This document shows, piece after piece, positions 8,271 through 54,237 of a stretch of DNA of 64,000 nucleotides. The notes beneath the pieces were generated by a model. The model ran no database searches. It had not been told where the DNA came from and saw nothing but the letters and a program-made list of their open reading frames with translations. Where the stretch lies: the IMG/VR virus record IMGVR_UViG_3300029906_000003, positions 1 through 64,000 of that record; one strand, given 5' to 3'. The DNA is from a virus (Duplodnaviria; Heunggongvirae; Uroviricota; Caudoviricetes). The translations under genes were made by a program, and so were the position numbers. Positions within the stretch are counted from its first letter, which is position 1, and the number at the start of each line of letters is the position of its first letter.

Positions 8271-8296
8271 TCAAAAGAAAGAGGTGACTTTAATAC

Positions 8297-11200
8297 ATGA
8301 CTAGCTTTTATGGAAGCGTGAATGGCGGCCAAGGGGGAAGCGGCGAAGGGGTTGATACTTCTACTCTAATGCAGAAGAATAACCCGACCTTCAATGGCAC
8401 TATCACTGGCCCCAATGCGCGCTTTACAGGAACTGTGCAGATTCCTGAACCAACAGAAGATAATCATGCAGCTACCAAAGGCTATGTCGATGCGGCCCTC
8501 GCTGATGTCGATTTAAGTGAAGTTACTACTAGAATGGACGCAATCGAAACCGCATAGGACGAGCTTGCCGCGCAGTTAGATGATAAAGTTGATGCGGAGA
8601 ATCCCGCATTTACTGGCACAGCTACTTTAGATGGAAAGAATATTGCAACTGTAGACTAGATTCCTAATATAAGTGATTTACCTTACCTAGATGAAAATAA
8701 TCCAACTTATACTGGGACTTTAACTGGCGAAAATGCGGCCTTCAGTGGAACCGTCACGGTTGCAACCCCTGCCGCAGAGGGCGAGGCCGCGAACAAAGGC
8801 TATGTGGATGCAGCCAAGACAGAACTTGAAGGAGATATTAATACTTTACAGCAGACTGTTGCAAATCAGGCTGAAACTATTAATACTCTTAATCAATAGG
8901 TAACTAATATAACAGGCGGAACAGTAGAGCTTCCTTATTTGAAGAATACTGGTGATAGCGGCACTGGCGTCTATGATTTCACGGGTGCAACTGTTAATGC
9001 GGCCGACCCAGTTGATAACAGCAATGTTGCAACTAAACACTATGTGGATTAGAAGGTTGCAAGCGCAGGTGGCACAGGTGAAGTCGTAAGCTATACTCAA
9101 GGCGATGGTATTTCTATCTCACCTGAAAATGAGATTAGCTTGTCTATTGATAGCGCGGGCGCCAATGGTTTGAAAGTTGGAGCTAATGGTCTAGGCTTAG
9201 ACCTTGCGACCGGTACAACATCAGGTGCCATGGCCGCATCAGATAAGACTGCTATTGCTTCAAATACGACTGAAATTACTAATATTAAAGATGGAACTAC
9301 TGAATTGCCATACTTAAAAGAGACTAACCCTACATATGAAGGCACTCTAATCGGTGGAGATGCGACTTTCACTGGGAGCGTCTAGATCTCAACTCCTGAC
9401 CAAGACAACGAGGCCGCGAACAAAAGCTATGTAGATACAGCTCTTGCAGAAGCTAAATCTTATACTGATAATGCAGTATCTGGAATTGCTTCTGATGAAA
9501 CAATTCAGCAAATTCAATCTGATATTGAAAATATTGAAAATGGAACTACAGTTCTTCCTTACTTGTCATCAGCTGGGGGAACAGTGACAGGTCCTATCAA
9601 GTATGGAACGAGTCCTAAAGATACGTCAGACTTGGCAAATAAAGCATATGTAGATGCTATCCATGTCCAAGCTGTCGCAGATGCTAAAAATTATACTGAT
9701 AGTGAAATTACTAATCTTGAGAATGGGACAACTGAATTACCTTATATTAAAAACAATGGAGATACTATAACAGGTAGCTATGATTTAACTGGGGCCGCAG
9801 TTACTATCGCTGAACCTGTATCTGATAATAGCCCCGCTACTAAGAAATATGTTGATGATTCTATTTCTGCTATTGATGTAAGTGAATAGATTGCGCCTTT
9901 AACTGGAAGAGTCGCTGCCGCGGAGGGTGAGATTGATACCCTGTAGATTGACGTTGAAGCTGTTGAGATTAGCGTGGCTAATATTACTAATGGGACAACT
10001 GAATTACCTTATGTAAAAGATTCTGGTGACACTGTTACTGGCACCTATAATTTTACGGGAGCTAATGTGACTATTGCCGAACCTACTGTCAGTAATAATC
10101 CTGCTACTAAGAATTACGTTGATACAAAGATAGCAAGCGCAGGCGGCTCTGGAGAAGTTGTGAGTTACACTTAGGGTAATGGTATTAATATTTCTCCTGA
10201 GAACATTATTTCTGTAGTCATTGCCGCAGATAATGCCAATGGTCTCGCTGTCGATACTAATGGTATCAAATTAAATGTGGCGACTTCTACAACAGCTGGT
10301 GCGATGAGTGGAGCTGATAAAGCTAAACTAGATGCTTCTTCTACTACTGAGCAGATGAATCAAGCTATTAGCAGTGCTATTGATGAAGCTCTTGAAGACC
10401 CGACCAAACTGCCTTTTGTAAACATTAATGGAGATACCATGCACGGTAGCCTTACTACCACTGAATTGTTTACTGATTTTGTCACTATTCGTAATGCAGG
10501 GACAGATGGTAAGACAGGTTTCCAGAATAATAGTGATACTGACCATATTAGAGTCTATGATAAAGTAGCCAACACTCTTGTTCCTATTGAAGTTGGAGAA
10601 CCTGTAAACAATCAAGATGCTTCAACCAAGAAATATGTTGACGATAAGGTTACTACTGAAACTGCTGCTAGAGCAGAAGCTATCGAAGACCTTAATGAAG
10701 CAAAAGCAGATAAGGACAATCCCACATTTACTGGCACTCTTTCAGGTGCAAACGCGACTCTTAGTGGCACATTAACTGGCAACACAGCAACCTTCTCAGG
10801 TGGAATTACTGTTCCTCTTGAGCCAGGAGCAGAAGGAAGTGCAACTTCTAAGAAGTATGTTGATGACCAGATTGCCGCCATAGATGTAAGCGAGCAGATT
10901 GAACCTTTAGCTCAAAGAGTTACTACAGCAGAAGGAGAAATTGATACTCTTCAAAGTAATATTGTCAACATCACTAATGGAACTACTGAGTTACCATATA
11001 TTGAAAAATCCAATGGCTCTTATACCGGACAGCTTTTTGGAGAAAACCTTGAGTTGTCTGGCAATATCAACGCAGCAAATGCTGAATTTACTGACAGTGT
11101 TACCGTACCAGTTACACCTATAAATGATGCGAATGCTGCGTCTAAAAAGTATGTAGATGAGAAGGTTGCTACTCTTCCCTATGTAACAAAAGAAGAGGTA

Positions 11201-14200
11201 GAAATTGCTGCTGATACTCGTGATGTAGCTAGAGCATATCGTTATACCTTCAATGATGGTCTTGACGGAACTAATTCTAATGCGGGCTTCGGCTTCATTG
11301 ACTACACTCCTGCTATTGTTACAGAGAAAGATGGAAGTACGGATTTCTCACCTTTGTATATTGGAGAGCCAGAAAAAGAGTCTCAAGCTGCTACTAAGAA
11401 GTATGTCGATGATACTATTGCGGCTGTTAATGCTCCTGAATATACTTTAGCTAAGCAGACCGCAGCAGAAGATGGATATTTCGCCACTTATTATCTGACC
11501 AAAGATAGTGTGCAAGTTGGCGAAAAGATTAATATCCCTAAAGACTACCTAGTTAAAGAAGCAGAATTGTTAGAAGTTGCGGTAACTGATACTCCTTATA
11601 GCGGAGCTGTGATTGGTGACAAGTACATTGACTTTACAATTAATACACAAGCCTCTGATGAAGATGAGCAGCATATCTACTTGCCCGTTAAGGACTTGGT
11701 TGATGTCTATACTGGCGGCAATGGTATAAACATTGACGCATCTAATATTGTAAGTGTTTAGATTGATGCGGCAAATAGTAATGGACTAGCTCTGGGTAGC
11801 GCAGGACTCAAATTAAATCTTGCGACCACGAGCGCCGCAGGAGCTATGAGTGCGGCAGATAAGACTAAATTAGATACTGCAATAAGCGAAGAACAATTAA
11901 CTGCGGTTGAGAATGAAGTTGATACTCTTCAAACAGAAGTAAATAATATTAAGAGCGGGACAACTGACCTTGGTTATTTGAAAGCAACTGACCCAAGTTA
12001 CACAGGAATTATGACTGGTGTCGATGCTACATTCAGTGGAAATGTAGTTGTTCCCGCACCTGATACAGATAATGAAGCTGCTAACAAGAGTTATGTTGAT
12101 ACCGCTATAAGTGGAGCTAAGACAGAGCTTGAAGGAGATATAAGCACTATTCAACAAACTGTTACCGCTGTGCAAGGAACTGTATCTGGTTTTGAGAGTG
12201 AAATTGAAACTCTTACACAAGCCGTAAATAATATTACTAATGGAACAACAGAACTTCCTTATATTAAGGATTCTGGAGATTCTGTTAGTGGTAATTATAG
12301 CTTCAATGGCACTGTTACTGATATTGCATCTCGTACTTCTAATCTTCAGCTTGCCAATTTAAATACTGCTCCTGACCAATGGATAGATGCTGAATATGCT
12401 AATATCAAATACAATTCTACAAATAAGAGAGTAGACTTCAGCCTCATGACCAATACTGGTCTTACTACTAATGGAGTTAAAGTCAGTGGTGCAGAGCCTG
12501 AAGGAACTAATGACTTTACTACTAAAAATTATGTAGATACTAAAGTAACAGACCTTCAGAATAACAAGCTGAATAAAAATAATCCTGCCTTTACTGGCAC
12601 TATTACAGGAGCCAATGCTAGCTTCGCTGGGACATTAACTGGCAATGCAGCAACATTTTCTGGCGGGGTTACTGTACCTCTTGAACCAGGCGAAGAAGGA
12701 AGTGCTACTTCTAAAAAGTATGTTGACAACCAGATTGCTTCTATTGATGTCAGTGAACAAATTGAGCCATTAACTCAAAGAGTCACCGCTGTAGAAGGAG
12801 AAGTTGATACCCTTCAATCTAATGTTGGAACTATTGAAACCAATATCACTAATATTACTAATGGGACAACAGAGCTTCCTTATGTTAAAAAAAGTGGAGA
12901 CACAGTAACTGGCTTGCTTACTCTTGAGCAAGGGGTAAAGAATGTCAACACAGATGACCCCTCTTATGAAACTAATCTAAGTTCTAATGGATTTACTTTT
13001 AAACATGATTCAACAGTAAAAATGCTTAGCCTTCAGGGCAACAAATTAAAATTCTCAGACGCAACTGCTCAAACTTTAGTTCCAGTTGAAGTAGGAACGC
13101 CTATTGAAGATAAAGACGCAGCTACTAAGGGATATGTAGATGAAAATACTTCTCCTTTGTATACGAAGTCTAGCTTTGGTGTAAATATATTTGGATAGCC
13201 CCTAGGCGAAGAAAGCCTAGGAGTTTTCGTAGATAATGTTAAGACTGAAAAGCCTTTATATGGATTAACTCTGTATGGAGACTCGTCTCAAGAACATTAC
13301 GAAGGATATAACTTATTAAATCCTGATAATATTACTGAGAATGTAGGATATAGTGATACTGGTACATCAGAGACTAAACAAGGCGTCTTCAGTATAAAGT
13401 TTGTATTTGAAGAAGGTCAGGATTATGCGTTTGTTCTTGCATGGGATATCAGTAAGAATTTTGAAGAATACTTGTCTCAATTAAATATATTCTATTATAA
13501 TGCTGGACAATCTTTTGTTAGGAAGGAAACCGTCTATTTGGGAAGCCGATATGAGCAATTATTCAATAGTTATACCAACTCTGCTCATTCTGGATATGTA
13601 TATATTGAATTGACTCCTAAAGAGAGTTTTACCCTTACAAAAGAATTTATTACGAATAACTTTATGATTCTTTTAATTGAAAACCGAGCTTTCCCTTTTG
13701 AACCTTATACAGGTAAAAATCCAGCTCCTTCTCTTATATATCCAACTGATATAACAGGTATAGAAGAGAATCCTGTATTATTTGATTATGGACAATTATA
13801 TACGCAAAATAACAGTGGCTCTTCTTCAATTGATTTTGAAAATTTAGGCAAGATACATTTGCCTACTATAACTTCTCCTTTGTATGGAGGTTATCTGGGA
13901 AATATGAGCACTTATAGCGAATCGCCCAATATTATTATGAATTCAATTGCTAGAGCTTCATTTGATAGTGCTACAATATGTAATAATGGTTTAGAAGACT
14001 GTATTTATTATATAGACAAACGTGATTATAAAAAGGGAAAGGATATTAGAGTATTTAAGACTTTAACTATTAATCCTACAGAAGTAAGCGATTACATTAC
14101 TGATGGCGGGGCTTTAGGAAATGGTCATAAGTTTATTCTTAATGTAAATGATAATGTTAAGTTTGAAAATTATAGTTTGAATGACTTAAATGAAAAAGAA

Positions 14201-16123
14201 GAAAAGCTTTTAGTGGTTGTTCCCGTGAATGGTTTTGTTGACTACAATGAAATTGATAGATGGCATCAAAGAATCTGGTGTAACTATTTACAATCTGCTG
14301 ATTTTGAATTTGTTAGTAACCTTGAAGAAGAAAATCCAGAACCAACTACTTCTTATGATACAATTTATTATGATTATGATATTCAAAAGGGTGACGACCC
14401 TTCTAATATAACAATCTCTTTGTCAAATATTGCCATTTATACTACTAGAGCAACAACAGTGGAAGAATTTGCGGCCTTTATTACGACTCCAATGCAAATT
14501 GTATACGCTTTGGATGAACCTGTTGAAACAGATATTCCAGAAGATGAATTACTTAACTTAGATAATATCCATATTAAGAATAATAGCTTATATACTATAC
14601 TGTCAGAAGATATAAACGAAGAGAATCTAAATAGTAATACCGTTAAGATTATTGACTTCGATATTACTTATTATAGAGTTCCTTCTTCCAATGGTGACAT
14701 ATATCCAATTGAAAATCTTAATACTCTGGAGCTCTTTAGCTATAAGGCATTGGCTACTTCCAGTGATAATTCAATAGAAATAAATAATATTAAAGATAAG
14801 CTGACTATTGCAAACCGTGCTGTTTTTATTGGCGATTCAATTTCTCAGGGATATGATAATGATGATTATAGTTTCGTTGATATTTTTAAAAAGAATGACG
14901 ATTTCTCTGGTGTTACTAAATTAGCTGTTGGAGGAGCTACATTAGGTCCTTATCAGATAGTTTCTGAAGCTTCTGGTTATAGTTGTCTTGAACAAATTCA
15001 AGCAAATGAATCTGCGATTTCAGGTGCCAATTTCTGCTTCTTACAGTTCTGCATTAATGATGTAAAATGCTTGGTTTCTAAGAATATCCAGATTGGAACT
15101 CCTTCTGAGACTAGTGCAATAACTACTGTTTGTGGCTATTTGAAGAAGTGTATTGAATTACTGTATACTTATAATCCTACTATTTCTATTGTATTTATTA
15201 ATCTCGCAACTAATGAGCCTGTAATTGATATGATATGGGACAATGAAGTAAATAGCGATGCTGATAAGTATAAATTCTATCATAAAGTTTGGAATCTCAG
15301 CATAGCAGAAGTTCTTGAACAGTATAATATTCCTATGATTAATATCTTTGATTGGACAAGTATAAATGCAAATAACTTTAGCAATTATACAGTTCATACA
15401 GCAGATGGTACTCATTTGAATACAGCTGGAAATACTCTTGCTTATTATCGTATTAAGAATGCTCTTTGGAATGAATCTGAGAAGTCTTATCCAACTCAGC
15501 CAAAGAATTTAATCATTGATGCAACATTAGGCGGAAATATTGGAGTAGAGAATATTGAAAGAATTAAAAACGCTTTTGACAATAATATTCAAGTCTTCTT
15601 CAATCTGAAAGAAAACGAAGATAGTACTGAAGATTTAATTGTCCCTGTTAATTTTAGTTCTGATGTTGGATATGGTTCTCATTTCACATTGGCTCAGGAT
15701 AGCAAATTGTATTTGTATGAATTATAGACAAATACCGTTGGCCAAATTACTTATACATCTTATAATATAACTGATATGAAGGCTAATATTGACATTGCTT
15801 TAGAGGCTGGAACAGAGAAGCTTGAAACTCTTAAGTCTTATTCTGGTGCTACTTATACAATAGATTCTATGAAGCCAAATACTTTGTACAACTTACGCAA
15901 TGTTGACTTACCAACTATTACTGTTACAGCTTTTGAGGCACCAAGTAGTACAGAATATGTTTCTACATATCATATGATTTTCCAGAGTAATGTTACTCCT
16001 GTAATTCTTAATCTGCCAAGTAGTGTTATTTATCCAGAAGATTTTACAATAGAAACTAAGCATATCTATGAAATTAATATCATGGATAATCTGTTAAGCT
16101 ATCAGAGCTGGCCTATGGAATAA
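8297..16123 (+). CDS. giant tail-fiber-like protein (about 2600 aa) with about 13 NGTTELPY-type repeats and a C-terminal SGNH/GDSL esterase domain. It contains at least 12 in-frame TAG codons.
   Basis: Track ORFs 8297-8557, 9140-9385, 9563-9889, 9974-10174, 10277-11761, 11846-13198, 13472-15727 and 15776-16123 are all in one frame and separated only by TAG. Repeats NITNGTTELPY[IV]K, ATKKYVD and AIDVSEQIEPL recur. GDSL motif AVFIGDSISQGY. RBS AAAGAGGTGA. Single gene 8297-15727 versus fusion with 15776-16123 is uncertain. Confidence 0.7.
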
Positions 16124-17005: not shown

Positions 17006-18535
17006 TTATGCCATATCAATTACCTTATACCGCTCGCCATCCAGAACTTCATACATCAAATCAGTTCCCGTTTTGCCACTCAAAACCTGCTTGAAGATGA
17101 TGGGGCTGCATCCAGATACATAAGTGATATTAGGGCCATCATCCAGAATGTCAGCATTCCCCGTAGCATTCACATTCCAATACACGAGTTTAGGCAGGGT
17201 AAGGCCATGTGCCGCCCACTTCTCTCGCATATTTTCCATCATAGTTCGCGGATTAGGCTTCTGCGTAGAATATCTGTACACACCACGCGCCGAATCAATC
17301 TGCATATCGCTAATAACAACAAGAGTCTTAGGAATATCTTCCTTTCGAACACCAGGTTGCGTAGCAATCTTCAACAGCAAATCAAAGGTGGCTTCGAGGT
17401 TGGTGTTATCTACGAGATTAGTTCTATAGATACGATTAACCTTATCAACAAAGTCTACGCCTTCAATTTTAATCAACTGCGGGCGAGAAGCAAAAGAAAT
17501 ATAATTGTTCTGGAAAGGACCGCGGCAACGCTCACCGCAGTAGATGCCGAGCGAAATGGCTACGTCAATGGGACGCACAGCATTACCGTAAGTCATGGAA
17601 CCAGAGGTATCCACAACGCACATCATGCTAGATTCCTTGCCCTCAAAGTAATCAGGAAGATTTTCCCAATACTTATTAACAGCAAGCCGCTCAACAGAAT
17701 CGTAATCTGCGGCCTTCACGAATCTCCCATACCGATCCATATGAACGAGGTCAAGGGTCTTCTTAACTACGTCATACGGATAAAGGGTGGCCGCATTGAC
17801 CTTTTTAGTTTCGTCCTTAATGAAAGCCTCATACTCAGCCTTCAAAATGTCGCGGCGGGCAAATGCGTTCTTGTAGATAAGACCTGCACGAGACGGAATC
17901 TTATCAAACATATCCGCAATCTCATCCCAGCGGTTGGCGGACATGAGCTTCTCAAGCACCTTAATGCGCTCACGCAGAATGCTAAGTACCTTCCGATACT
18001 GACGAGAGGTCATACCCAAGTACTTCCGCACATCATGAGCCAGCGCAATGGTCTTGGCCGCACTCGCGTTCTCGGAAGGCAGCCACTTAGCCAGCAAAGA
18101 AGGGGCCTTGCACTCCATATCCAAAGCCAGCTGATGCTTGACAATCTTCATTGCATCATTCCAAAGCTGAGTGCCCTGAGTAATGTACAGAAGGTCGTCC
18201 CAGCGGCCATATTCGGGGATGAACCCAAGATTATGCTTAGCCGCATCCTTGTTATAGCCGATTAGCCAACGATAACAGGTACGAAAGTACCGACGCTCGC
18301 CTTGGCCTCCGCGCACATCCCTTTCATAGAACAAACACTTCAGCGCATAGACGGGATTCTCATCAAACGCATTCTTAAACAAAAGAATGCAATCTTCATC
18401 CGGTCTATTCCGCATCGCGCCCGCATGAGCAAACATATCATACAGAGCTTCGCCCGTACTCTTATGTGCCAGCCCGCCATTCTGGGTGAGGCCATAGTTT
18501 GCAGACTTGTTCATCTCATTCATAAAAGTATTCAT
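17006..18535 (-). CDS. vWA-domain protein (DUF2828/TROVE-like architecture)
   Basis: VVDTSGSM MIDAS motif; 509 aa; the overlapping + ORF 16874-18265 is a shadow ORF. Confidence 0.65.
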   Translation of the reverse strand: MNTFMNEMNKSANYGLTQNGGLAHKSTGEALYDMFAHAGAMRNRPDEDCILLFKNAFDENPVYALKCLFYERDVRGGQGERRYFRTCYRWLIGYNKDAAKHNLGFIPEYGRWDDLLYITQGTQLWNDAMKIVKHQLALDMECKAPSLLAKWLPSENASAAKTIALAHDVRKYLGMTSRQYRKVLSILRERIKVLEKLMSANRWDEIADMFDKIPSRAGLIYKNAFARRDILKAEYEAFIKDETKKVNAATLYPYDVVKKTLDLVHMDRYGRFVKAADYDSVERLAVNKYWENLPDYFEGKESSMMCVVDTSGSMTYGNAVRPIDVAISLGIYCGERCRGPFQNNYISFASRPQLIKIEGVDFVDKVNRIYRTNLVDNTNLEATFDLLLKIATQPGVRKEDIPKTLVVISDMQIDSARGVYRYSTQKPNPRTMMENMREKWAAHGLTLPKLVYWNVNATGNADILDDGPNITYVSGCSPIIFKQVLSGKTGTDLMYEVLDGERYKVIDMA

Positions 18536-20561: not shown

Positions 20562-20636
20562 TATAAAAACTAGAGAGCTTCAAAAATAAATCCAAGTCTT
20601 GTTATTTGATACCTCTTGCTGTAACTCTCTAATGGT

Positions 20637-20725
20637 GGTGCGCCCTGGGGGAATCGAACCCTCACAATGCGATAGCGTCTGAAGATTAGAAGTCAACTGT
20701 TTTATCCAATTAAACTAAGAGCGCT
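20637..20725 (-). tRNA. tRNA-like, type II architecture, anticodon arm does not pair (probable pseudo-tRNA)
   Basis: good acceptor GCGCTCT/AGGGCGC, D-arm GTTT..AAAC and T-arm, but no pairing around ..GTTGACTTCTAATCTTCAG.. Confidence 0.3.
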
Positions 20726-21756: not shown

Positions 21757-21852
21757 TCGAGGCGGTGGGATTCGAACCCACATACTAGGGGTCAGAGCCC
21801 TAGGCTGTGAATGTTTTAGAGACATTTGCTGAACCAATTTAGCTACGCCTCG
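21757..21852 (-). tRNA. suppressor tRNA, anticodon CUA (reads UAG), long variable arm (type II), A73
   Basis: acceptor CGAGGCG/CGCCTCG, D-stem GCT/AGC, anticodon stem AATGT/ACATT with loop CTCTAAA (CUA at 34-36), variable arm hairpin CTAGGG-CTCTGAC-CCCTAG, T-arm GTGGG-TTCGAAT-CCCAC; CCA not encoded. Confidence 0.7.
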
Positions 21853-23248: not shown

Positions 23249-23322
23249 TGGAGCACACGGTTGGAGTCGAACCAACTTTCACAGATTTGCAGCCTGCTAT
23301 CTAGCCGTCTGATTCCGTGCGC
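23249..23322 (-). tRNA. tRNA-Cys(GCA)
   Basis: anticodon stem GCAGG/TCTGT (two G-U pairs), loop CTGCAAA, T-loop TTCGACT, U73, CCA. Confidence 0.7.
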
Positions 23323-23723: not shown

Positions 23724-23799
23724 CAGTATGTATATACTAATGCGTTACCATTACGCTATATTCGCTATTAATGGCGCGAACATTCGGATTTGAACCGAA
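23724..23799 (-). other. permuted or fragmented tRNA-like element: a 3' half (T-arm, acceptor 3' strand, CCA) lies 6 nt upstream of a matching 5' half (acceptor, D-arm, hairpin)
   Basis: sense order TTCGG-TTCAAAT-CCGAA TGTTCGC G CCA ttaata GCGAATA TA GCGT-AATGGTA-ACGC ...; the two acceptor strands are complementary. Confidence 0.3.
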
Positions 23800-23869
23800 A
23801 ATACTTAGTTCCCTAAGAATTTTGCTGTTACTGTCTTTATTTATATAAAACTATCAAGATACCTTTTTA

Positions 23870-23938
23870 AAACTGGGACTCGAACCCAGACCCTTTTGAT
23901 TATCAGTCAAATGCTCTAACCAGTTGAGCTATTAAGCG
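23870..23938 (-). tRNA. tRNA-Ile(GAU)-like pseudogene (acceptor strands do not pair)
   Basis: D-arm GCTC-AACTGGTTA-GAGC, anticodon arm TTTGA-CTGATAA-TCAAA and T-arm CTGGG-TTCGAGT-CCCAG are good, but the 3' acceptor TTTTAAA does not pair with the 5' side. Confidence 0.3.
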
Positions 23939-24056
23939 CGAGGTGCGCTCAAAAGTGTTTGCTGTAAGTATCTTTAATTGCGGATGGGATTAACCAATAT
24001 ATTTCTGCAAAATTAGTTAAAACAGACTCACCACGTGAAGGTTTTTGCATGAGTCC

Positions 24057-25439: not shown

Positions 25440-25529
25440 TGGTGCGGGAAGAGAGATTTGAACTCTCATTCCTACTTTGTTCGGAGTCAACTTCTAAGGC
25501 TGATGTGGCTGCCGTTTCACCATTCCCGC
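25440..25529 (-). tRNA. tRNA-Leu(UAG)
   Basis: type II; anticodon stem TCAGC/GTTGA, loop CTTAGAA, T-arm GAGAG-TTCAAAT-CTCTC, A73. Confidence 0.8.
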
Positions 25530-25584
25530 ATATGAGAGCCTTTTATAGTCGTACTCAGGACTAATTTTTGGAGGTTCATCATGG

Positions 25585-25899
25585 TGGTGCTGCTGACGAG
25601 ATTTGAACTCGTAAGCTATTTCTAGCAACGGATTTTCTTACTACTTCATGTCGCCATGACCGCATTTGCGTTGTAGTCTGGAGTATACCTTGACCATATT
25701 ACTATTGTAACTTAGGTCCGCGCCGTCTACTCTCTCCACATTCCATTTTTCAATGTTAGCTCGGCGATAGTCTTAACCGATATTAATTAAGATTTCCCCC
25801 GAATTTGACGCGATTCACTCTAGTCATTTCTTCCTAGGTGCTCAAGCCTTCTTTTGTTAAGGCCAAGTCCGTAGTGTTTGCCAATTTCACCACAGCAGC
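25585..25899 (-). tRNA. tRNA-Leu(UAA) interrupted by a 229-nt putative group I intron in the anticodon loop. Exons are 25866-25899 and 25585-25636; the intron is about 25637-25865.
   Basis: 5' exon: GCTGCTG TG GTG-AAATTGGCAAA-CAC T ACGGA CTT. 3' exon: AAAA TCCGT T-GCTA-GAAA-TAGC-TT ACGAG-TTCAAAT-CTCGT CAGCAGC A CCA. Both acceptor strands and both anticodon-stem strands are complementary. The intron follows U34 and ends in G, as in cyanobacterial tRNA-Leu(UAA) introns. Confidence 0.55.
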
Positions 25900-26613
25900 A
25901 TATAGAAATTGAATACCTCACTTTTAACCACTCGCTAGACCTTCGTCTTACTCTCATCTATTCTCTGTTATATTCAGTCACGAGGCAATGAAGTCTGAGC
26001 TTCGGGTAGCGACCCCTAACTTCTTCACTGGCGGACCTAAATCCGCATTCTCTCTAGCCGCTTGATTACGACTAACTTTCACTCGTCATTCAGACCAATG
26101 TGTATAATACATATTCATCCAACGTCCAGATTTTGAGCTACTTGTACTGAACTCTCCCCTTATAGACAGATTTCTCTGCTTCAACTGGACATTATTTGCT
26201 TACTAGGATTACCTAGAGTTTGCTTAGTTTCCTAGGCTAAACCTTATCTAGGCTTATTCTCGTACTTGCGAGCGTCTATTGCGCAAACGGGGAGTCAAGT
26301 TCATACCTTTAACTAGGGAATAAATTACTAGCACCATAAACTCGCGGAAGTGGCCTTTGGCCGCTCATACTCTCACATCACTGAAAGAGTCATTTGGCTG
26401 TTACAAGGGTATCCTCTTGTCCAGTCCTACCCGCATATTTAAAGCTCATGTCTAGGCCAGATGACCTTCTGTCTTCACCTAGATAGCTAGTGGCTAAAAG
26501 TAAGGTATTCAATTCTCAAAGTTCTATTTATTTATCAAGACAGTATTTAAATCAGACTATCAATCTAACATTATCCAAGCTAAAATTTGCTGTAACTGTC
26601 TTTTGATGTATTT

Positions 26614-26642
26614 ATTATAACAAATTTTTATTTATTTGTCAA
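26614..26642 (-). promoter_or_regulatory. sigma-A consensus promoter (TTGACA-17-TATAAT), leftward, with the conserved leader motif
   Basis: revcomp reads TTGACAaataaataaaaatttgtTATAAT, then ..AGACAGTTACAGCAAATTTT. Confidence 0.6.
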
Positions 26643-27823: not shown

Positions 27824-27916
27824 TGGAAGCGTAGAGGAGGCTCGAACTCCCAAACAGTATCACTACTGAGCTCCACTGTGAAAGAGTGGGGACTCTACCA
27901 ATTTGTCTACTACGCC
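27824..27916 (-). tRNA. tRNA-Glu(UUC)-like with an unusual 21-nt variable arm
   Basis: acceptor GGCGTAG/CTACGCT, D-stem GAC/GTC, anticodon stem CCACT/AGTGG, loop CTTTCAC, extra arm CAGT-AGTGAT-ACTG, T-arm GGGAG-TTCGAGC-CTCCT, CCA. Confidence 0.45.
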
Positions 27917-28757: not shown

Positions 28758-29585
28758 TTAAGCTATATAATCCTTTAAAACAGAAGCCCTGATTGGATTC
28801 CTCATCTTCTTGAGGGCGCACTTTTCTACTTGCCGCACTCGTTCTTTAGAAAGACCAATCTTTCTTGCAATTTCATCAAGAGTAAGAGGTTTAATATAAC
28901 CAATACCGAACCGCATCTTTAATATATCAGATTCTTTATCAGGAAGAGTACTCAATACTTTATTTATCTTCTAACACATTTCTTTTTCTTCATACTTCTC
29001 TTGAATTTCTGATTCTTTATCTTCAATAAAATCACCAAAAGAGTCTTCATTATCTTCCGAGATGGGAGAATCAAGAGAAATCATATCATTCATATAACTC
29101 TTAATTTTTTTCAGCTCTTCAAAAGTAATGCCCATTTCCGCGGCAACCTCTTCATCAGAGAACGAGTTATATTTTTGCATCATTCCCGTCGTAATCTTTT
29201 TATACTTATTAATTTTCTCAACAATATGACTAGGAACTCTGATATTTTCAGATTGCTGACTTAATGCTCGCGAAATTGCAGACTTAATCCAATAATAAGC
29301 ATATGTACTAAAACGATAACTACTGGACAAATCATATTTGTCAATAGCTGTCATTAAGCCAATATTACCTTCTTGGACCAAATCCAAAAAAGATAAACTT
29401 GCATTTTGCGAATAATATTTCTTAGCAATAAAAACAACAAGTCTAAGATTAGCCTCAATCAATTCTTCTCGTGCAGTCTTATTTCCTGACTGTGCTTTTT
29501 CAAGAAGAATCCTTTCGGTTTCCGTATCTAATATATTATCAGATAACTCATTTAAATAGATAGAACTAATATCAATATCTGCCAT
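28758..29585 (-). CDS. sigma-70 family sigma factor (regions 2-4, group 3/SigF-G-like) with 1 in-frame TAG between regions 3 and 4
   Basis: Track ORFs 28971-29585 (DLVQEGNIGLMTAIDKYD, region 2) and 28758-28955 (LTLDEIARKIGLSKERVRQVEKCALKKMR, region 4.2 HTH) share one frame and are separated by a single TAG: ..KEMC[TAG]KINKVLSTLPDKESD.. Confidence 0.75.
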
Positions 29586-39294: not shown

Positions 39295-40533
39295 ATGGTT
39301 AATCCTAAAACTGGTATGCGGGAACTTGCTTACGTTGTTAAAGTAGATTGTATTAATCCTCTCCCTGGGTATGACCGGGTTGAGCAGGCAGTCGTGGGTG
39401 GCTGGTGTCTGGTTGTGAAAAAAGACCAGTTTAAGCCCGGAGACCTTGGAATCTATTTTGAGATTGATTCCAAAGTTCCCGCTGTAGAACCCTTCCTGTT
39501 CCTTGAATCTAAACATTATAAGATTAAGACCCAGCGTATGTGTAAATCTATTTCGCAGGGTTTGCTTATGCATCCGTCTGATTTTGGTTGGACTTTGAAT
39601 GAAGATGGGACTATTAATGCGGATGGCGACACCCTTGCATTGGGCGATTTCTTGACTGCACGTCTTAACGTAACTTATGCGTCTGAAGAGGATAATGCGC
39701 GTAAGGGCATTAATCCTACTTCGTCTAAGTATCAGAGCATGGCCGCCCGCAACAAAGAACGCTTTAAGAAAGCTCCGTATCGTTGGCTTATGAAATATGA
39801 GCTTGGCCGCAAGTTTCTTTTCCTTATTTTTGGCAAGAAACGCGATACTATTCCCACTCACTTCCCAACTAAGTTCAATGGGGTATCTAAAACCGATTCT
39901 GAGCGGGTTGAGAATATGCCTTGGGTGTTGAAGGATAAGAGTCCTTTAATTGTAACTTCTAAGGTAGATGGCACTTCTAGCACTTTTATCTTAGAGAAGA
40001 AGCCTTTCGGCAAATACGAATATTATGTTTGTTCTCGTAACGTGAGACAGCTTGTCCCTGACCAGAAAAACTTTCATGCGGAAGATGAAAATGTTTACTG
40101 GGAGGTTAGTGACAAATTTCATATTAAGGAATTTCTTAAGGATTATATCGAAAAGAATAATTTTGCTTGGGCCGCAATTCAAGGCGAGACTGCGGGCATT
40201 AGTTTGAAGGGAGTTAAAATTCAGGGCAACCCGCATGGCTTAGGAGAACTTTCTTTCTTTGCTTTTGATTTAATTAACTCTAAGGAAGGCAAGGTAAATC
40301 CTGTTGAAGGTGAATATCTTGTTAGACCTTATGGAATTAATTGGGTTCCTATTATCTCAACCAACTTCATTCTTCCTGATACCATGGAGGAATTCAAAAA
40401 GCAGGCGGACGGGCCTTGTGACATTAAGCATTCAACCGGACTTCGCGAAGGGTTCGTCTATCGCCGCGCCGATAATCCGAACTTTAACTTCAAAAATGTT
40501 AGCAATCAATATCTGTTGAAGAAGAAGGAGTAA
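39295..40533 (+). CDS. RNA ligase (Rnl-like)
   Basis: nucleotidyltransferase motif I TSKVDGTS (KxDG); 412 aa; extended -10 promoter TGATATAAT upstream. Confidence 0.65.
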   Translation: MVNPKTGMRELAYVVKVDCINPLPGYDRVEQAVVGGWCLVVKKDQFKPGDLGIYFEIDSKVPAVEPFLFLESKHYKIKTQRMCKSISQGLLMHPSDFGWTLNEDGTINADGDTLALGDFLTARLNVTYASEEDNARKGINPTSSKYQSMAARNKERFKKAPYRWLMKYELGRKFLFLIFGKKRDTIPTHFPTKFNGVSKTDSERVENMPWVLKDKSPLIVTSKVDGTSSTFILEKKPFGKYEYYVCSRNVRQLVPDQKNFHAEDENVYWEVSDKFHIKEFLKDYIEKNNFAWAAIQGETAGISLKGVKIQGNPHGLGELSFFAFDLINSKEGKVNPVEGEYLVRPYGINWVPIISTNFILPDTMEEFKKQADGPCDIKHSTGLREGFVYRRADNPNFNFKNVSNQYLLKKKE

Positions 40534-53246: not shown

Positions 53247-53275
53247 ATGGGACTCATAATGAGTCCCTTTTTTTG
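53247..53275 (+). terminator. rho-independent terminator
   Basis: gggactcataatgagtccc followed by tttttttg. Confidence 0.65.
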
Positions 53276-53286
53276 TAGGAGAATAT

Positions 53287-54237
53287 ATGACCATTGTTAT
53301 AATAATATTATTAATGCTTGTTATAATTCTTCTATTTATAAATACTTCTATAAAAAAAATAGATGCAAGAGAAGCATAGCTAAAAGTAGAAGAATTATAG
53401 CATAAGAATACGATACTACAGTATACAATATAGCAATAGCAAGATGAAAAAGAAAAATATTCTAGCAAGATAAATAATCTAATTCAAGAGAAAGAAAAAC
53501 TTGATACTGAAATAAACCAGAAGAAAATATGCTTAGTTAATTATGAAAAAGATATTGAACTAGATTACTAGAATAAACAATAGCAAATGAAAAATGCGGC
53601 AAGTCTTTATTTTGACTCGCTAGAAAAATCATATAAAACAAAAGAAGAAGAATATGATAAGAAGTGCGCGGCCCTCGTCTCAGAAATGGCGGACATGCAA
53701 TCCTAGTATGCAGAGATTTAGTCCCAACTTGTATAGGGCGCCGCGGCCGCATTAAGAGAGCGAGAAAAGAAAGAGAAGATTAATTTCTACAAACTCAAAT
53801 TATCAGATTCTGATTCTATTGATATAAAAGAATTGTTTGAGCTAAGAAAGAGGTTCCGCAATCCTTCTGCATTAAGCAAATTGGTTTGGAGCGAATACTT
53901 CTTGAAGTAGACCTCTGAATTATGTAATAGAGTATTGGGGACTAATACGAAATGCGGAATTTATAAAATAACTAACTTAATTTCTAATCAGGCTTATATT
54001 GGTCAAAGTGTAGATATAGCTAGTCGTTTTAAGCAACACATTAAATGCGGTTTGGGCATAGACGCGCCTGCATCAAATAAACTATATAAATCCATGATCG
54101 AAGATGGTGTTTGGAATTTTTCTTTTGAATTATTAGAAGAATGCCCTAAAGATAAATTAAATGAAAGAGAATCTTTCTGGATAGATTTATATTAGACTAA
54201 TAAAGTAGGATTAAATAGTACGAAAGGAAATGGCTAA
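53287..54237 (+). CDS. coiled-coil protein with a C-terminal GIY-YIG nuclease domain; 13 in-frame TAG codons
   Basis: One frame runs from ATG 53287 (RBS AGGAG) into track ORF 53935-54195 (GIYKITNLISNQAYIGQS..R..H..ERESFWI). Translation with TAG as X gives a Q/E/K-rich coiled coil. Confidence 0.6.

What the first reader, a model, noticed from the sequence alone, without database searches (positions are those of the whole stretch)
25585..25899. tRNA-Leu(UAA) split by a ~229-nt putative group I intron in the anticodon loop
A perfect tRNA 3' part (half of the anticodon stem, long variable arm, T-arm, acceptor strand, CCA) lies about 260 nt from an equally perfect 5' part (acceptor, D-arm, other half of the anticodon stem). 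Every helix is complementary across the gap. The intervening sequence sits between U34 and A35 of a CUU|AAAA loop and ends in G, exactly like the classic cyanobacterial/plastid tRNA-Leu(UAA) group I intron. I first considered a tmRNA and rejected it because no tag ORF is present. An intron in a phage tRNA gene is uncommon.
Basis: partly seen in the sequence, partly recalled or inferred. Interest (0 to 1): 0.75.

Follow-up and report, generated by a model that had tools for sequence, protein, structure and literature searches.

The report
Self-splicing intron in phage tRNA-Leu
A phage leucine-tRNA gene is interrupted in its anticodon by a 228-base group I (self-splicing type) intron of the classic bacterial tRNA-Leu(UAA) kind; such introns prove to be common but unannotated in phage tRNA genes.

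Summary
On the minus strand, a 35-nt 5' exon (25899-25865) and a 52-nt 3' exon (25636-25585, CCA encoded) join into a perfect class II tRNA-Leu(UAA). They are separated by a 228-nt insert (25864-25637, not 229) between U34 and A35.

The insert is a group I intron. It has a U·G pair at the 5' splice site, a terminal G, helices P1-P9 and the P3/P7 pseudoknot. Rfam's own model scores it only 24.7 bits (gathering score 50), but five relatives score 57-66 bits. A core model built from 31 relatives, with the window left out, finds it as the only hit in 64 kb (83.8 bits, E 6e-15). Covariation is strong: 97% of cells are paired, against 35-39% in slid controls.

A sister phage contig carries the same intron. 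Every stem difference between the two copies preserves pairing, so the RNA is under selection. Its nearest relatives are the chromosomal tRNA-Leu(UAA) introns of Clostridia.

The kind is known; the setting is under-reported. The same gene-intron combination occurs in about 90 of 119 sampled viral contigs, in roughly one in five of a sample of phage tRNA-Leu(UAA) genes, and unannotated in the cultured jumbo phage Atu_ph07. Self-splicing is inferred, not shown.

The parts
25585..25899 (-). Split tRNA-Leu(UAA) gene: exon 1, intron, exon 2
   Evidence: ARAGORN with introns allowed: tRNA-Leu(taa) c[25585,25899] i(36,228)
25865..25899 (-). Exon 1 (35 nt): acceptor 5' strand, D arm, 5' half of the anticodon stem, C32-U33-U34
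   Evidence: Sequence. Acceptor, D and anticodon stems are 99-100% paired, with changes on both sides, across relatives
25637..25864 (-). Group I intron, 228 nt, with no ORF
   Evidence: Rfam RF00028 full-length match, 24.7 bits. Model R1 core hit, 83.8 bits. MFE fold z = -2.95. No ORF of 50 aa or more lies between 24970 and 26659
25585..25636 (-). Exon 2 (52 nt): A35-A36, 3' half of the anticodon stem, long variable arm, T arm, acceptor 3' strand, A73, encoded CCA
   Evidence: Sequence. Identical to sister contig L345 except one base in the variable-arm loop
25841..25867 (-). P1: exon C-U-U (25867-25865) pairs with the internal guide G-A-G (25843-25841), with U·G at the splice site. Between them lies a 6-bp P1 extension hairpin (25864-25859 with 25850-25845). 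U55-U56 (25845-25844) can pair with exon 2 A-A as P10
   Evidence: CUU and GAG pair as CG/UA/UG in all 46 sequences of A1 and, with one U-A to U·G change, in all 34 of A2. The extension hairpin appears in the MFE fold. P10 is inferred from the sequence
25816..25840 (-). P2 with a bulged A and a GAAA loop (25830-25827)
   Evidence: 6-7 of the P2 pairs change on both sides; 93-97% of cells are paired
25807..25812 (-). P3, 5' strand (CGCGUC)
   Evidence: Pairs with 25724-25719. 100% paired, and 4 of 6 pairs change on both sides
25719..25724 (-). P3, 3' strand (GGCGCG)
   Evidence: As above
25760..25803 (-). P4 (25803-25797 with 25766-25760; one G·G mismatch) enclosing an extended P5 hairpin (25792-25771)
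   Evidence: P4 is 98.7-98.8% paired in relatives. The P5 stem appears in the MFE fold. L345 has a compensatory U-A to C-G change in P5 and lacks the 11-nt tip
25739..25759 (-). P6 (C141-G161 plus a U·U) and P6a, a CAUU-GAAA-AAUG hairpin
   Evidence: The second P6 pair covaries CG/GC in relatives. P6a shows a compensatory U-A to C-G change against L345
25728..25734 (-). P7, 5' strand G[A]GAGUA, with the bulged A and the G-C pair expected of the guanosine-binding site
   Evidence: Pairs with 25685-25680 and crosses P3 as a pseudoknot. 100% paired in A2, with two covarying pairs (UA x21 / AU x13; CG x33 / GC x1, the GC being the window)
25680..25685 (-). P7, 3' strand UACUCC, preceded by J8/7 (25692-25686)
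   Evidence: As above
25693..25717 (-). P8, containing CCUAAG...UAUGG, the sequence of the 11-nt GAAA-tetraloop receptor
   Evidence: Outer pairs covary (CG x24 / UA x22 in A1; A2). The receptor reading rests on established knowledge, not on a test here
25640..25677 (-). Branched P9: P9 (ACUAC/GUAGU), P9a (CGC/GCG) and P9b (UCAUG-GCGA-CAUGA, GNRA loop)
   Evidence: MFE fold. P9b is 100% paired with 5 of 5 pairs changed on both sides, and P9 has 4 of 5 such pairs. Clostridial copies have the same layout
25637..25637 (-). Terminal G (omega-G) at the 3' splice site
   Evidence: Invariant in A1 and A2
25918..26506 (-). ROOL RNA, 18 nt upstream on the same strand; probably the same transcript
   Evidence: Rfam RF03087, 303.4 bits against a gathering score of 99.1. 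No minus-strand terminator-like site lies between it and the tRNA
26614..26642 (-). Consensus sigma-70-type promoter (TTGACA-17-TATAAT, TG before the -10) upstream of ROOL
   Evidence: 12 of 12 matches. This is a pattern match only

Best explanation
This is a functional phage tRNA-Leu(UAA) gene interrupted between U34 and A35 by a small group I intron with no endonuclease gene. Its layout is that of the bacterial tRNA introns, and it most likely descends from the chromosomal tRNA-Leu(UAA) gene of a Clostridia-like host.

Proposed mechanism, inferred rather than shown: the gene is transcribed with the upstream ROOL RNA and the downstream tRNAs from a strong promoter. The precursor folds so that exon C-U-U pairs with the intron's G-A-G (P1, with U·G at the splice site). 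A free guanosine bound in P7 attacks after U34. The terminal G then takes that site, and the freed 3'-OH of U34 attacks after it. This joins the exons into an 87-nt tRNA with anticodon loop CUUAAAA and releases the intron. No protein is needed for the chemistry. Splicing is obligatory, because the anticodon does not exist until the exons are joined.
For: Shown by tools:
- The exons form a complete tRNA-Leu(UAA).
- The Rfam group I model matches over its full length, E 2.7e-4 on the 461 nt searched. Relatives L072, L005, L041, L026 and L001 pass the gathering score at 57-66 bits.
- Model R1, built from 31 relatives without the window, gives one hit in 64 kb: 83.8 bits, E 6e-15.
- The hand-derived P1-P9 plus tRNA structure is 91.1% paired on 46 sequences and 97.2% on 34, against 35-41% for slid partners. 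50-53 pairs change on both sides, and 0 of 500 shuffles reach the observed values.
- The P7 pseudoknot is 100% paired with two independent swaps; one of them (G170-C217) occurs only in this phage lineage.
- Sister contig L345 has the same split gene, 291 of 315 positions identical. All three stem differences keep pairing: two double compensatory changes and one U-A to U·G. One 11-nt deletion removes a hairpin tip. The other changes are in loops and junctions.
- TTA makes up 26.7% of Leu codons in 20 long ORFs, and no uninterrupted tRNA-Leu(UAA) gene is in the window.
- A consensus promoter lies upstream.
- The closest introns and exons are Clostridial.

From established knowledge: the two-step guanosine-initiated mechanism, and self-splicing of the Anabaena/Nostoc tRNA-Leu intron, which PMC13011429 used as its positive control.
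Against: - No RNA data: splicing is not shown.
- The Rfam score is below the gathering score (24.7 against 50).
- This copy is the most divergent of its family: 25 of 117 near-invariant positions differ. The differences include a G·G mismatch in P4, a U·U in P6 and a U-to-G change in J6/7 that no relative in A1 shares.
- Some small group I introns splice poorly without helper proteins.
Confidence: 0.85

Rival explanations
1. It is a group I intron by descent but has lost activity, so the phage tRNA-Leu(UAA) gene is a pseudogene carried along in the tRNA array.
For: Lowest Rfam score in the family. The most departures from near-invariant columns. Mismatches in P4 and P6.
Against: Most departures are paired changes that keep helices: P5, P7, P9 and P9b. 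Between the window and L345, no substitution breaks a helix and two are double compensatory. The exons are almost unchanged between the two phages, while the flanks are 77-89% identical. All splice-site elements are intact: U·G, GAG guide, terminal G, bulged A plus G-C in P7.
Confidence: 0.08
2. The intron is removed, but only with protein help: a host or phage RNA chaperone, or cleavage followed by rejoining by the phage RNA ligase encoded at 39295-40533.
For: The phage encodes an Rnl-type RNA ligase (PF09414 and PF21189). Many group I introns need protein help in vivo (general knowledge).
Against: The complete, covarying catalytic core argues that RNA does the chemistry. There is no bulge-helix-bulge motif, and the position is 34/35 rather than 37/38. 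In T4, ligases of this kind repair tRNAs cut by host nucleases (general knowledge), which is a sufficient reason for the ligase gene to be there.
Confidence: 0.06
3. The two halves are unrelated tRNA fragments, or parts of a tmRNA or a permuted tRNA, with an unrelated spacer between them.
For: None found.
Against: All four stems that span or flank the gap are complementary and covary. The spacer is a significant group I core. ARAGORN finds no tmRNA. Dozens of orthologous split genes exist in phages and bacteria.
Confidence: 0.01

Closest known systems
[quoted passage not shown]
   Same: Same host gene and same insertion point (34/35). Same CUU/GAG P1 with U·G, a terminal G and no endonuclease gene. 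Similar size: 228 nt, against a surveyed range of 184-894 nt and mean of 257 nt.
   Different: It is carried by a phage. Its nearest relatives are Clostridia/Bacillota copies, not cyanobacterial ones. It also has a lineage-specific P7 base-pair swap, an extended P1 and P5, and a GCGA rather than GAAA loop on P9b.
Chromosomal tRNA-Leu(UAA) introns of Clostridia/Bacillota MAGs (loci L142, L147, L167, L184 and others)
   Same: Shared P2/P3 junction GAGCAC...GTGAATCGCGTCAAATTCGG. Shared branched P9 with a GNRA-capped arm. Near-identical exon design (acceptor GCYGCTG/CAGCRGC, CCA encoded). 59-68% identity over the 202 retained intron columns.
   Different: The Clostridial copies have the GACUU/AAGUC form of P7 and short P1 and P5 helices. 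They sit alone or in a Val-Gly-Cys...Leu cluster, not in a phage array of 25 or more tRNA genes next to ROOL.
Azoarcus tRNA-Ile(CAU) and Agrobacterium tRNA-Arg(CCU) introns (subgroup IC3)
   Same: Small tRNA anticodon-loop introns without an ORF. From memory of the published Azoarcus sequence, they share the GUCAAAUUCGG...CCGAG P3-P4 core, the P8 CCUAAG/UAUGG receptor and a GAAA loop on P2. That comparison was recalled, not tested here.
   Different: A different tRNA and insertion position.
Lak megaphage tRNA introns (Devoto et al., bioRxiv 10.1101/356790)
   Same: Introns in phage-encoded tRNA genes, conserved across cohorts, missed by bacterial tRNA finders.
   Different: Those were reported as 'enigmatic' and unclassified, in Thr, Phe, Gly and Tyr tRNAs. 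Here the intron is shown to be a group I ribozyme homolog in tRNA-Leu(UAA).
Classic phage group I introns (T4 td, nrdB, sunY; Twort; SPO1)
   Same: A group I ribozyme in a phage genome.
   Different: Those interrupt protein-coding genes and often carry homing endonuclease genes. The 2014 review PMC3984707 states that all phage introns known then were in protein-coding genes. This one is in a tRNA gene with no endonuclease.

Membership tests
Group I intron (Rfam RF00028) | Score at or above the family's gathering score | tested here: not met
   24.7 bits against 50, full-length match, E 2.7e-4 on the 461 nt searched; absent at gathering threshold. Five relatives score 56.9-66.2 bits.
Group I intron (Rfam RF00028) | Homology of the catalytic core (P3-P4-P6 and P7-P3-P8) to accepted members | tested here: met
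   Model R1, from 31 relatives without the window, gives 83.8 bits, E 6e-15, full length, as the only hit in 64 kb.
Group I intron (Rfam RF00028) | P3/P7 pseudoknot and helices P1-P9 supported by covariation | tested here: met
   91-97% of cells paired against 35-41% when slid. P3 has 4 of 6 and P7 2 of 6 pairs changed on both sides, and both helices are 100% paired in A2.
Group I intron (Rfam RF00028) | 5' splice site after a U that forms U·G in P1; intron ends in G | tested here: met
   U35·G57 and G263 are invariant in A1 and A2.
Group I intron (Rfam RF00028) | Guanosine-dependent self-splicing | not testable with these tools
   Needs in vitro transcription with GTP and Mg2+, or RNA from infected cells.
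tRNA-Leu(UAA) 34/35 intron family | Host gene is tRNA-Leu(UAA): class II tRNA with a long variable arm and A73 | tested here: met
   ARAGORN cloverleaf of the joined exons; sequence shows A73 and CCA.
tRNA-Leu(UAA) 34/35 intron family | Insertion between U34 and A35 | tested here: met
   Junctions gactt|intron|aaaat. The same junctions occur in 45 viral and 23 bacterial copies.
tRNA-Leu(UAA) 34/35 intron family | Intron sequence homologous to those in bacterial tRNA-Leu(UAA) genes | tested here: met
   Alignment A2 and distance tree: it joins the Bacillota clade, with 59-68% identity over the 202 retained columns.
Subgroup IC3 | Assignment by subgroup-specific covariance models | not testable with these tools
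   No subgroup models are available here. The layout (P2, simple P5, no P5abc, P8 receptor) fits IC3 from general knowledge. PMC13011429 finds 81% of bacterial tRNA introns to be IC.
Mobile group I intron with homing endonuclease | An endonuclease ORF in or beside the intron | tested here: not met
   No ORF of 50 aa or more in the intron. Neighbouring small ORFs have no HNH, GIY-YIG or LAGLIDADG hits.
tmRNA | tRNA-like domain plus a tag reading frame | tested here: not met
   ARAGORN with tmRNA search on finds none. No Rfam tmRNA hit in 25500-25960.
Protein-spliced (bulge-helix-bulge) tRNA intron | Short intron, usually at 37/38, bounded by a bulge-helix-bulge motif | tested here: not met
   The position is 34/35, the length is 228 nt, and it folds as a group I core.

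The most novel reading that the evidence does not exclude
Phages may be a large, overlooked reservoir and vehicle for the endonuclease-free group I introns of tRNA genes. They pick up intron-bearing tRNA genes from hosts, and within phage tRNA arrays the introns can colonise new tRNA genes. The sister contig L345 has a related intron in its amber-suppressor tRNA(CUA), where the window has the uninterrupted allele. In an amber-recoded phage, obligatory splicing could also time the supply of decoding tRNAs.
Probability: 0.3. Interest if true: 0.7.

Novelty: new member of a known kind. Interest (0 to 1): 0.5.

Why it matters
1. **Annotation.** Standard tRNA finders miss these genes, so phage tRNA repertoires and codon-matching analyses are undercounted. 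In Atu_ph07 a 'hypothetical protein' is annotated over the 3' part of the tRNA gene.
2. **Evolution.** How the endonuclease-free tRNA-Leu(UAA) intron came to be scattered across bacteria and plastids is an old question. A 2026 survey argued that horizontal transfer is infrequent because the introns lack endonucleases. Phage-borne, host-like, intron-bearing tRNA genes offer a concrete route. Two sister phages that differ by intron presence in one tRNA gene give a natural system for studying gain and loss.
3. **Ribozyme biology.** This lineage supplies natural compensatory variants of P7, the helix that holds the guanosine-binding site.

Tried and rejected
- **tmRNA or permuted tRNA:** no call from ARAGORN or Rfam.
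- **Bulge-helix-bulge intron:** wrong position and size.
- **Homing endonuclease:** none in the intron or the neighbouring ORFs.
- **Close relatives among GenBank phages:** none for the intron or for the 11-kb tRNA region.
- **Pattern built on the window's P7 swap:** no match in viral or metagenome contigs. It missed sister contig L345 only because of one J8/7 substitution.
- **My first P3 assignment** (GAC... paired with GUC, with a bulge) was wrong. The register CGCGUC/GGCGCG, with GAC as the P7-to-P3 linker, is the one that covaries.
- **Peripheral helices in A1:** MAFFT misaligned P5, P6a, P8-inner and P9a, which show only 22-74% pairing there. That reflects length variation, not evidence against them. 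P5 and P9a rise to about 80% pairing in A2.
- **A strict core regex** failed on most Clostridial copies because their P7 differs. This turned out to be a second covarying pair.
- **The bacterial 17-mer scan:** about 97 of the 120 hits are not in a split tRNA. That is in line with roughly 70 chance matches in 596 Gbp on both strands.
- **ARAGORN 'tRNA-Tyr(ata)' calls** in viral loci are tRNA-Leu(UAA) with the splice site set 2 nt off.
- **ARAGORN 'tRNA-Ile(gat) i(40,83)'** at 23772-23939 was not pursued. No R1 hit lies there, and Rfam sees only a truncated tRNA at 23871-23933.

Full report
**1. Observation**

The window holds a minus-strand array of at least 25 tRNA genes between about 20.1 and 30.6 kb. 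Default ARAGORN and Rfam's tRNA model at gathering score list no gene at 25585-25899.

Read on the minus strand, the stretch has three parts:
- a 35-nt 5' part, 25899-25865
- a 228-nt insert, 25864-25637
- a 52-nt 3' part, 25636-25585, ending in CCA

ARAGORN calls the joined parts an 87-nt tRNA-Leu(taa) with every stem intact, a long variable arm and A73. With introns allowed, it makes the same call on the genomic sequence, with the junction gactt|intron|aaaat.

**2. What the insert is**

A permissive Rfam scan of 25500-25960 gives a full-length match (model positions 1-253) to Intron_gpI. It scores 24.7 bits, below the gathering score of 50, with E 2.7e-4 for that 461-nt search. On its own the insert folds into the expected helices, with z = -2.95 against shuffles.

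I assigned the following by hand, in pre-tRNA numbering, and checked the pairing:
- P1: C33-U34-U35 with G57-A58-G59, U·G at the splice site
- P2: 60-84, bulged A, GAAA loop
- P3: 88-93 with 176-181
- P4: 97-103 with 134-140
- P5: 108-129
- P6 and P6a: 141-161
- P7: 166-172 with 215-220, bulged A167, crossing P3
- P8: 183-207, containing CCUAAG...UAUGG
- P9: a branched helix, 223-260
- terminal G263

**3. Relatives**

ARAGORN places 99 of them in a split tRNA gene. 67 are tRNA-Leu(taa). A further 23 are called 'Tyr(ata)' but are the same gene with the splice site set 2 nt off. A few are in Met, Thr, Ser, Arg or Phe tRNAs. Five of seven relatives tested pass Rfam's gathering score, at 57-66 bits.

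On an alignment of the window with 45 unique viral copies (A1), my structure is 91.1% paired, against 36-41% when partners are slid. 53 pairs change on both sides.

A bacterial scan with the window's P2/P3 junction found 23 split tRNA-Leu(UAA) genes. Nearly all are in Clostridia/Bacillota MAGs, in chromosome-like settings. They share the window's exon design, its P2/P3 junction and its branched P9.

On the mixed alignment A2 (34 sequences), 97.2% of cells are paired, against 35-39% when slid. P7 is 100% paired with two independent swaps: UA x21 / AU x13, and CG x33 / GC x1. The single GC is the window.

A covariance model of the core, built from 31 relatives without the window, finds one hit in the window. 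It lies at 25679-25815 (-), with 83.8 bits and E 6e-15. Membership in this group I family is therefore established even though the Rfam threshold is not met.

**4. Is this copy alive?**

It is the most divergent member: 25 of 117 near-invariant positions differ. Most of those changes are paired or lie in loops.

The best evidence comes from metagenome contig L345, a syntenic relative of this phage that is 77-89% identical across the tRNA region. Its tRNA-Leu(UAA) has a 217-nt intron, and the whole split gene is identical to the window's at 291 of 315 positions. It shares the P7 swap. The differences are:
- U148-A153 to C-G in P6a
- U111-A126 to C-G in P5
- U41-A50 to U·G in the P1 extension
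- an 11-nt deletion of the P5 tip
- single changes in loops and junctions
- one base in the variable-arm loop of the exon

No helix is broken. This is the pattern of an RNA under purifying selection.

Other supporting points: TTA supplies 26.7% of Leu codons in 20 long ORFs, and the window has no uninterrupted tRNA-Leu(UAA) gene. A perfect TTGACA-17-TATAAT promoter lies upstream of the adjacent ROOL RNA, and no minus-strand terminator-like site separates ROOL from the split tRNA.

**5. Mechanism**

This section is inferred from the established chemistry of group I introns. Free guanosine bound in P7 attacks after U34. The terminal G then occupies the site, and the U34 3'-OH attacks after G263. 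The exons are joined and the intron is released. The anticodon UAA exists only after splicing. Splicing itself is not shown here.

**6. Origin**

A distance tree of the intron columns puts the window on a long branch with the Bacillota clade and viral L031. It sits apart from the clade that holds Atu_ph07 and the 735-kb phage LR756501. The exons also resemble Clostridial tRNA-Leu(UAA). The simplest reading is capture of an intron-bearing host gene. The direction of transfer was not tested.

**7. Comparison with what is known**

The tRNA-Leu(UAA) 34/35 intron is the classic bacterial and plastid tRNA intron. A 2026 survey of 4,934 complete bacterial genomes lists 333 tRNA group I introns, 81% of them subgroup IC, and did not cover phage genomes.

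For phages, the 2014 review states that all introns seen to that date were in protein-coding genes. The 2018 Lak megaphage preprint reports 'enigmatic' unclassified tRNA introns and says that, to the authors' knowledge, phage tRNA introns had not been reported before. In nine searches I found no paper describing group I introns in phage tRNA genes. That is a statement about the searchable library only.

The sequence data tell a different story:
- The cultured jumbo phage Atu_ph07 carries an unannotated tRNA-Leu(UAA) with a 278-nt intron of this family. A 'hypothetical protein' CDS overlaps its 3' part, and the genome paper does not mention an intron.
- LR756501 has a copy with a 205-nt intron.
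- Among viral loci sharing the window's D-arm 19-mer, 14 carry the core and 50 are uninterrupted tRNA-Leu(UAA) genes. That is about one in five.

Caveat: I did not check the viral status of individual IMG/VR contigs.

**8. Verdict**

This is a real, well-supported group I intron in a phage tRNA-Leu(UAA) gene. It is a new member of a known kind. The surrounding pattern is of moderate interest: these introns are widespread but unannotated in phages, this one is of Clostridial type, and intron presence differs between sister phages at another tRNA gene.

Noticed in passing
window 21757-21852 (-); L345 850-1163 (-): The 96-nt tRNA that ARAGORN labels Phe(aaa) has anticodon loop CTCTAAA, which gives anticodon CUA. 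It is a class II amber-suppressor tRNA. Its ortholog in sister contig L345 is split after CUCU by a 214-nt group I intron (R1 72.1 bits; guide GGA pairs UCU). That intron is about 59% identical to the Leu intron and very similar from P7 to P9. The window has the intron-free allele.
   Followed up: partly
window 8294-16123 (+) and 53263-54237 (+): With TAG read as sense, 8294-16123 becomes one 2,610-codon frame with 11 in-frame TAGs, fusing three tail-fibre-like ORFs. 53263-54237 becomes a 325-codon frame with 11 TAGs and no standard ORF of 150 aa or more. Together with the CUA suppressor tRNA, this suggests amber recoding of some genes.
   Followed up: partly
window 25918-26506 (-); promoter 26614-26642 (-): A ROOL RNA (303 bits) lies 18 nt upstream of the split tRNA, behind a perfect sigma-70 consensus promoter with an extended -10.
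   Followed up: partly
window 39295-40533 (+), 17006-18535 (-), 28971-29585 (-): The window encodes an Rnl-type RNA ligase (PF09414 and PF21189), a 509-aa DUF2828/DUF7788 protein (phrog_850, 'RNA-binding protein') beside the tRNA array, and a sigma-70 region 2/3 protein inside the array.
   Followed up: no
L120 1494-1855 (Agrobacterium phage Atu_ph07, MF403008 about 112890-113251): Unannotated tRNA-Leu(UAA) with a 278-nt group I intron. CDS AUZ94936.1 ('hypothetical protein') overlaps its 3' part. The published count of 33 tRNAs omits it.
   Followed up: partly
L022, L033, L041, L048, L054, L080, L108 (viral contigs): These intron-bearing tRNAs have the CUU|AAAA loop (anticodon UAA) but no long variable arm, so they are class I tRNAs. 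Their amino-acid identity is unclear.
   Followed up: no
L037 4573-4703 and 5941-6082: Two separate group I cores (112.7 and 101.6 bits) lie about 1.3 kb apart on one viral contig, so at least two tRNA-region introns occur in one phage.
   Followed up: no
window 20636-20724, 27824-27916, 23252-23322, 23772-23939 (-): Other unusual tRNA calls: an 89-nt Arg(tct) and a 93-nt Glu(ttc) with long extra arms; a tRNA seen only by Rfam at 23252-23322; and an ARAGORN 'Ile(gat) i(40,83)' where Rfam sees a truncated tRNA at 23871-23933. No group I core hit lies at any of them.
   Followed up: no
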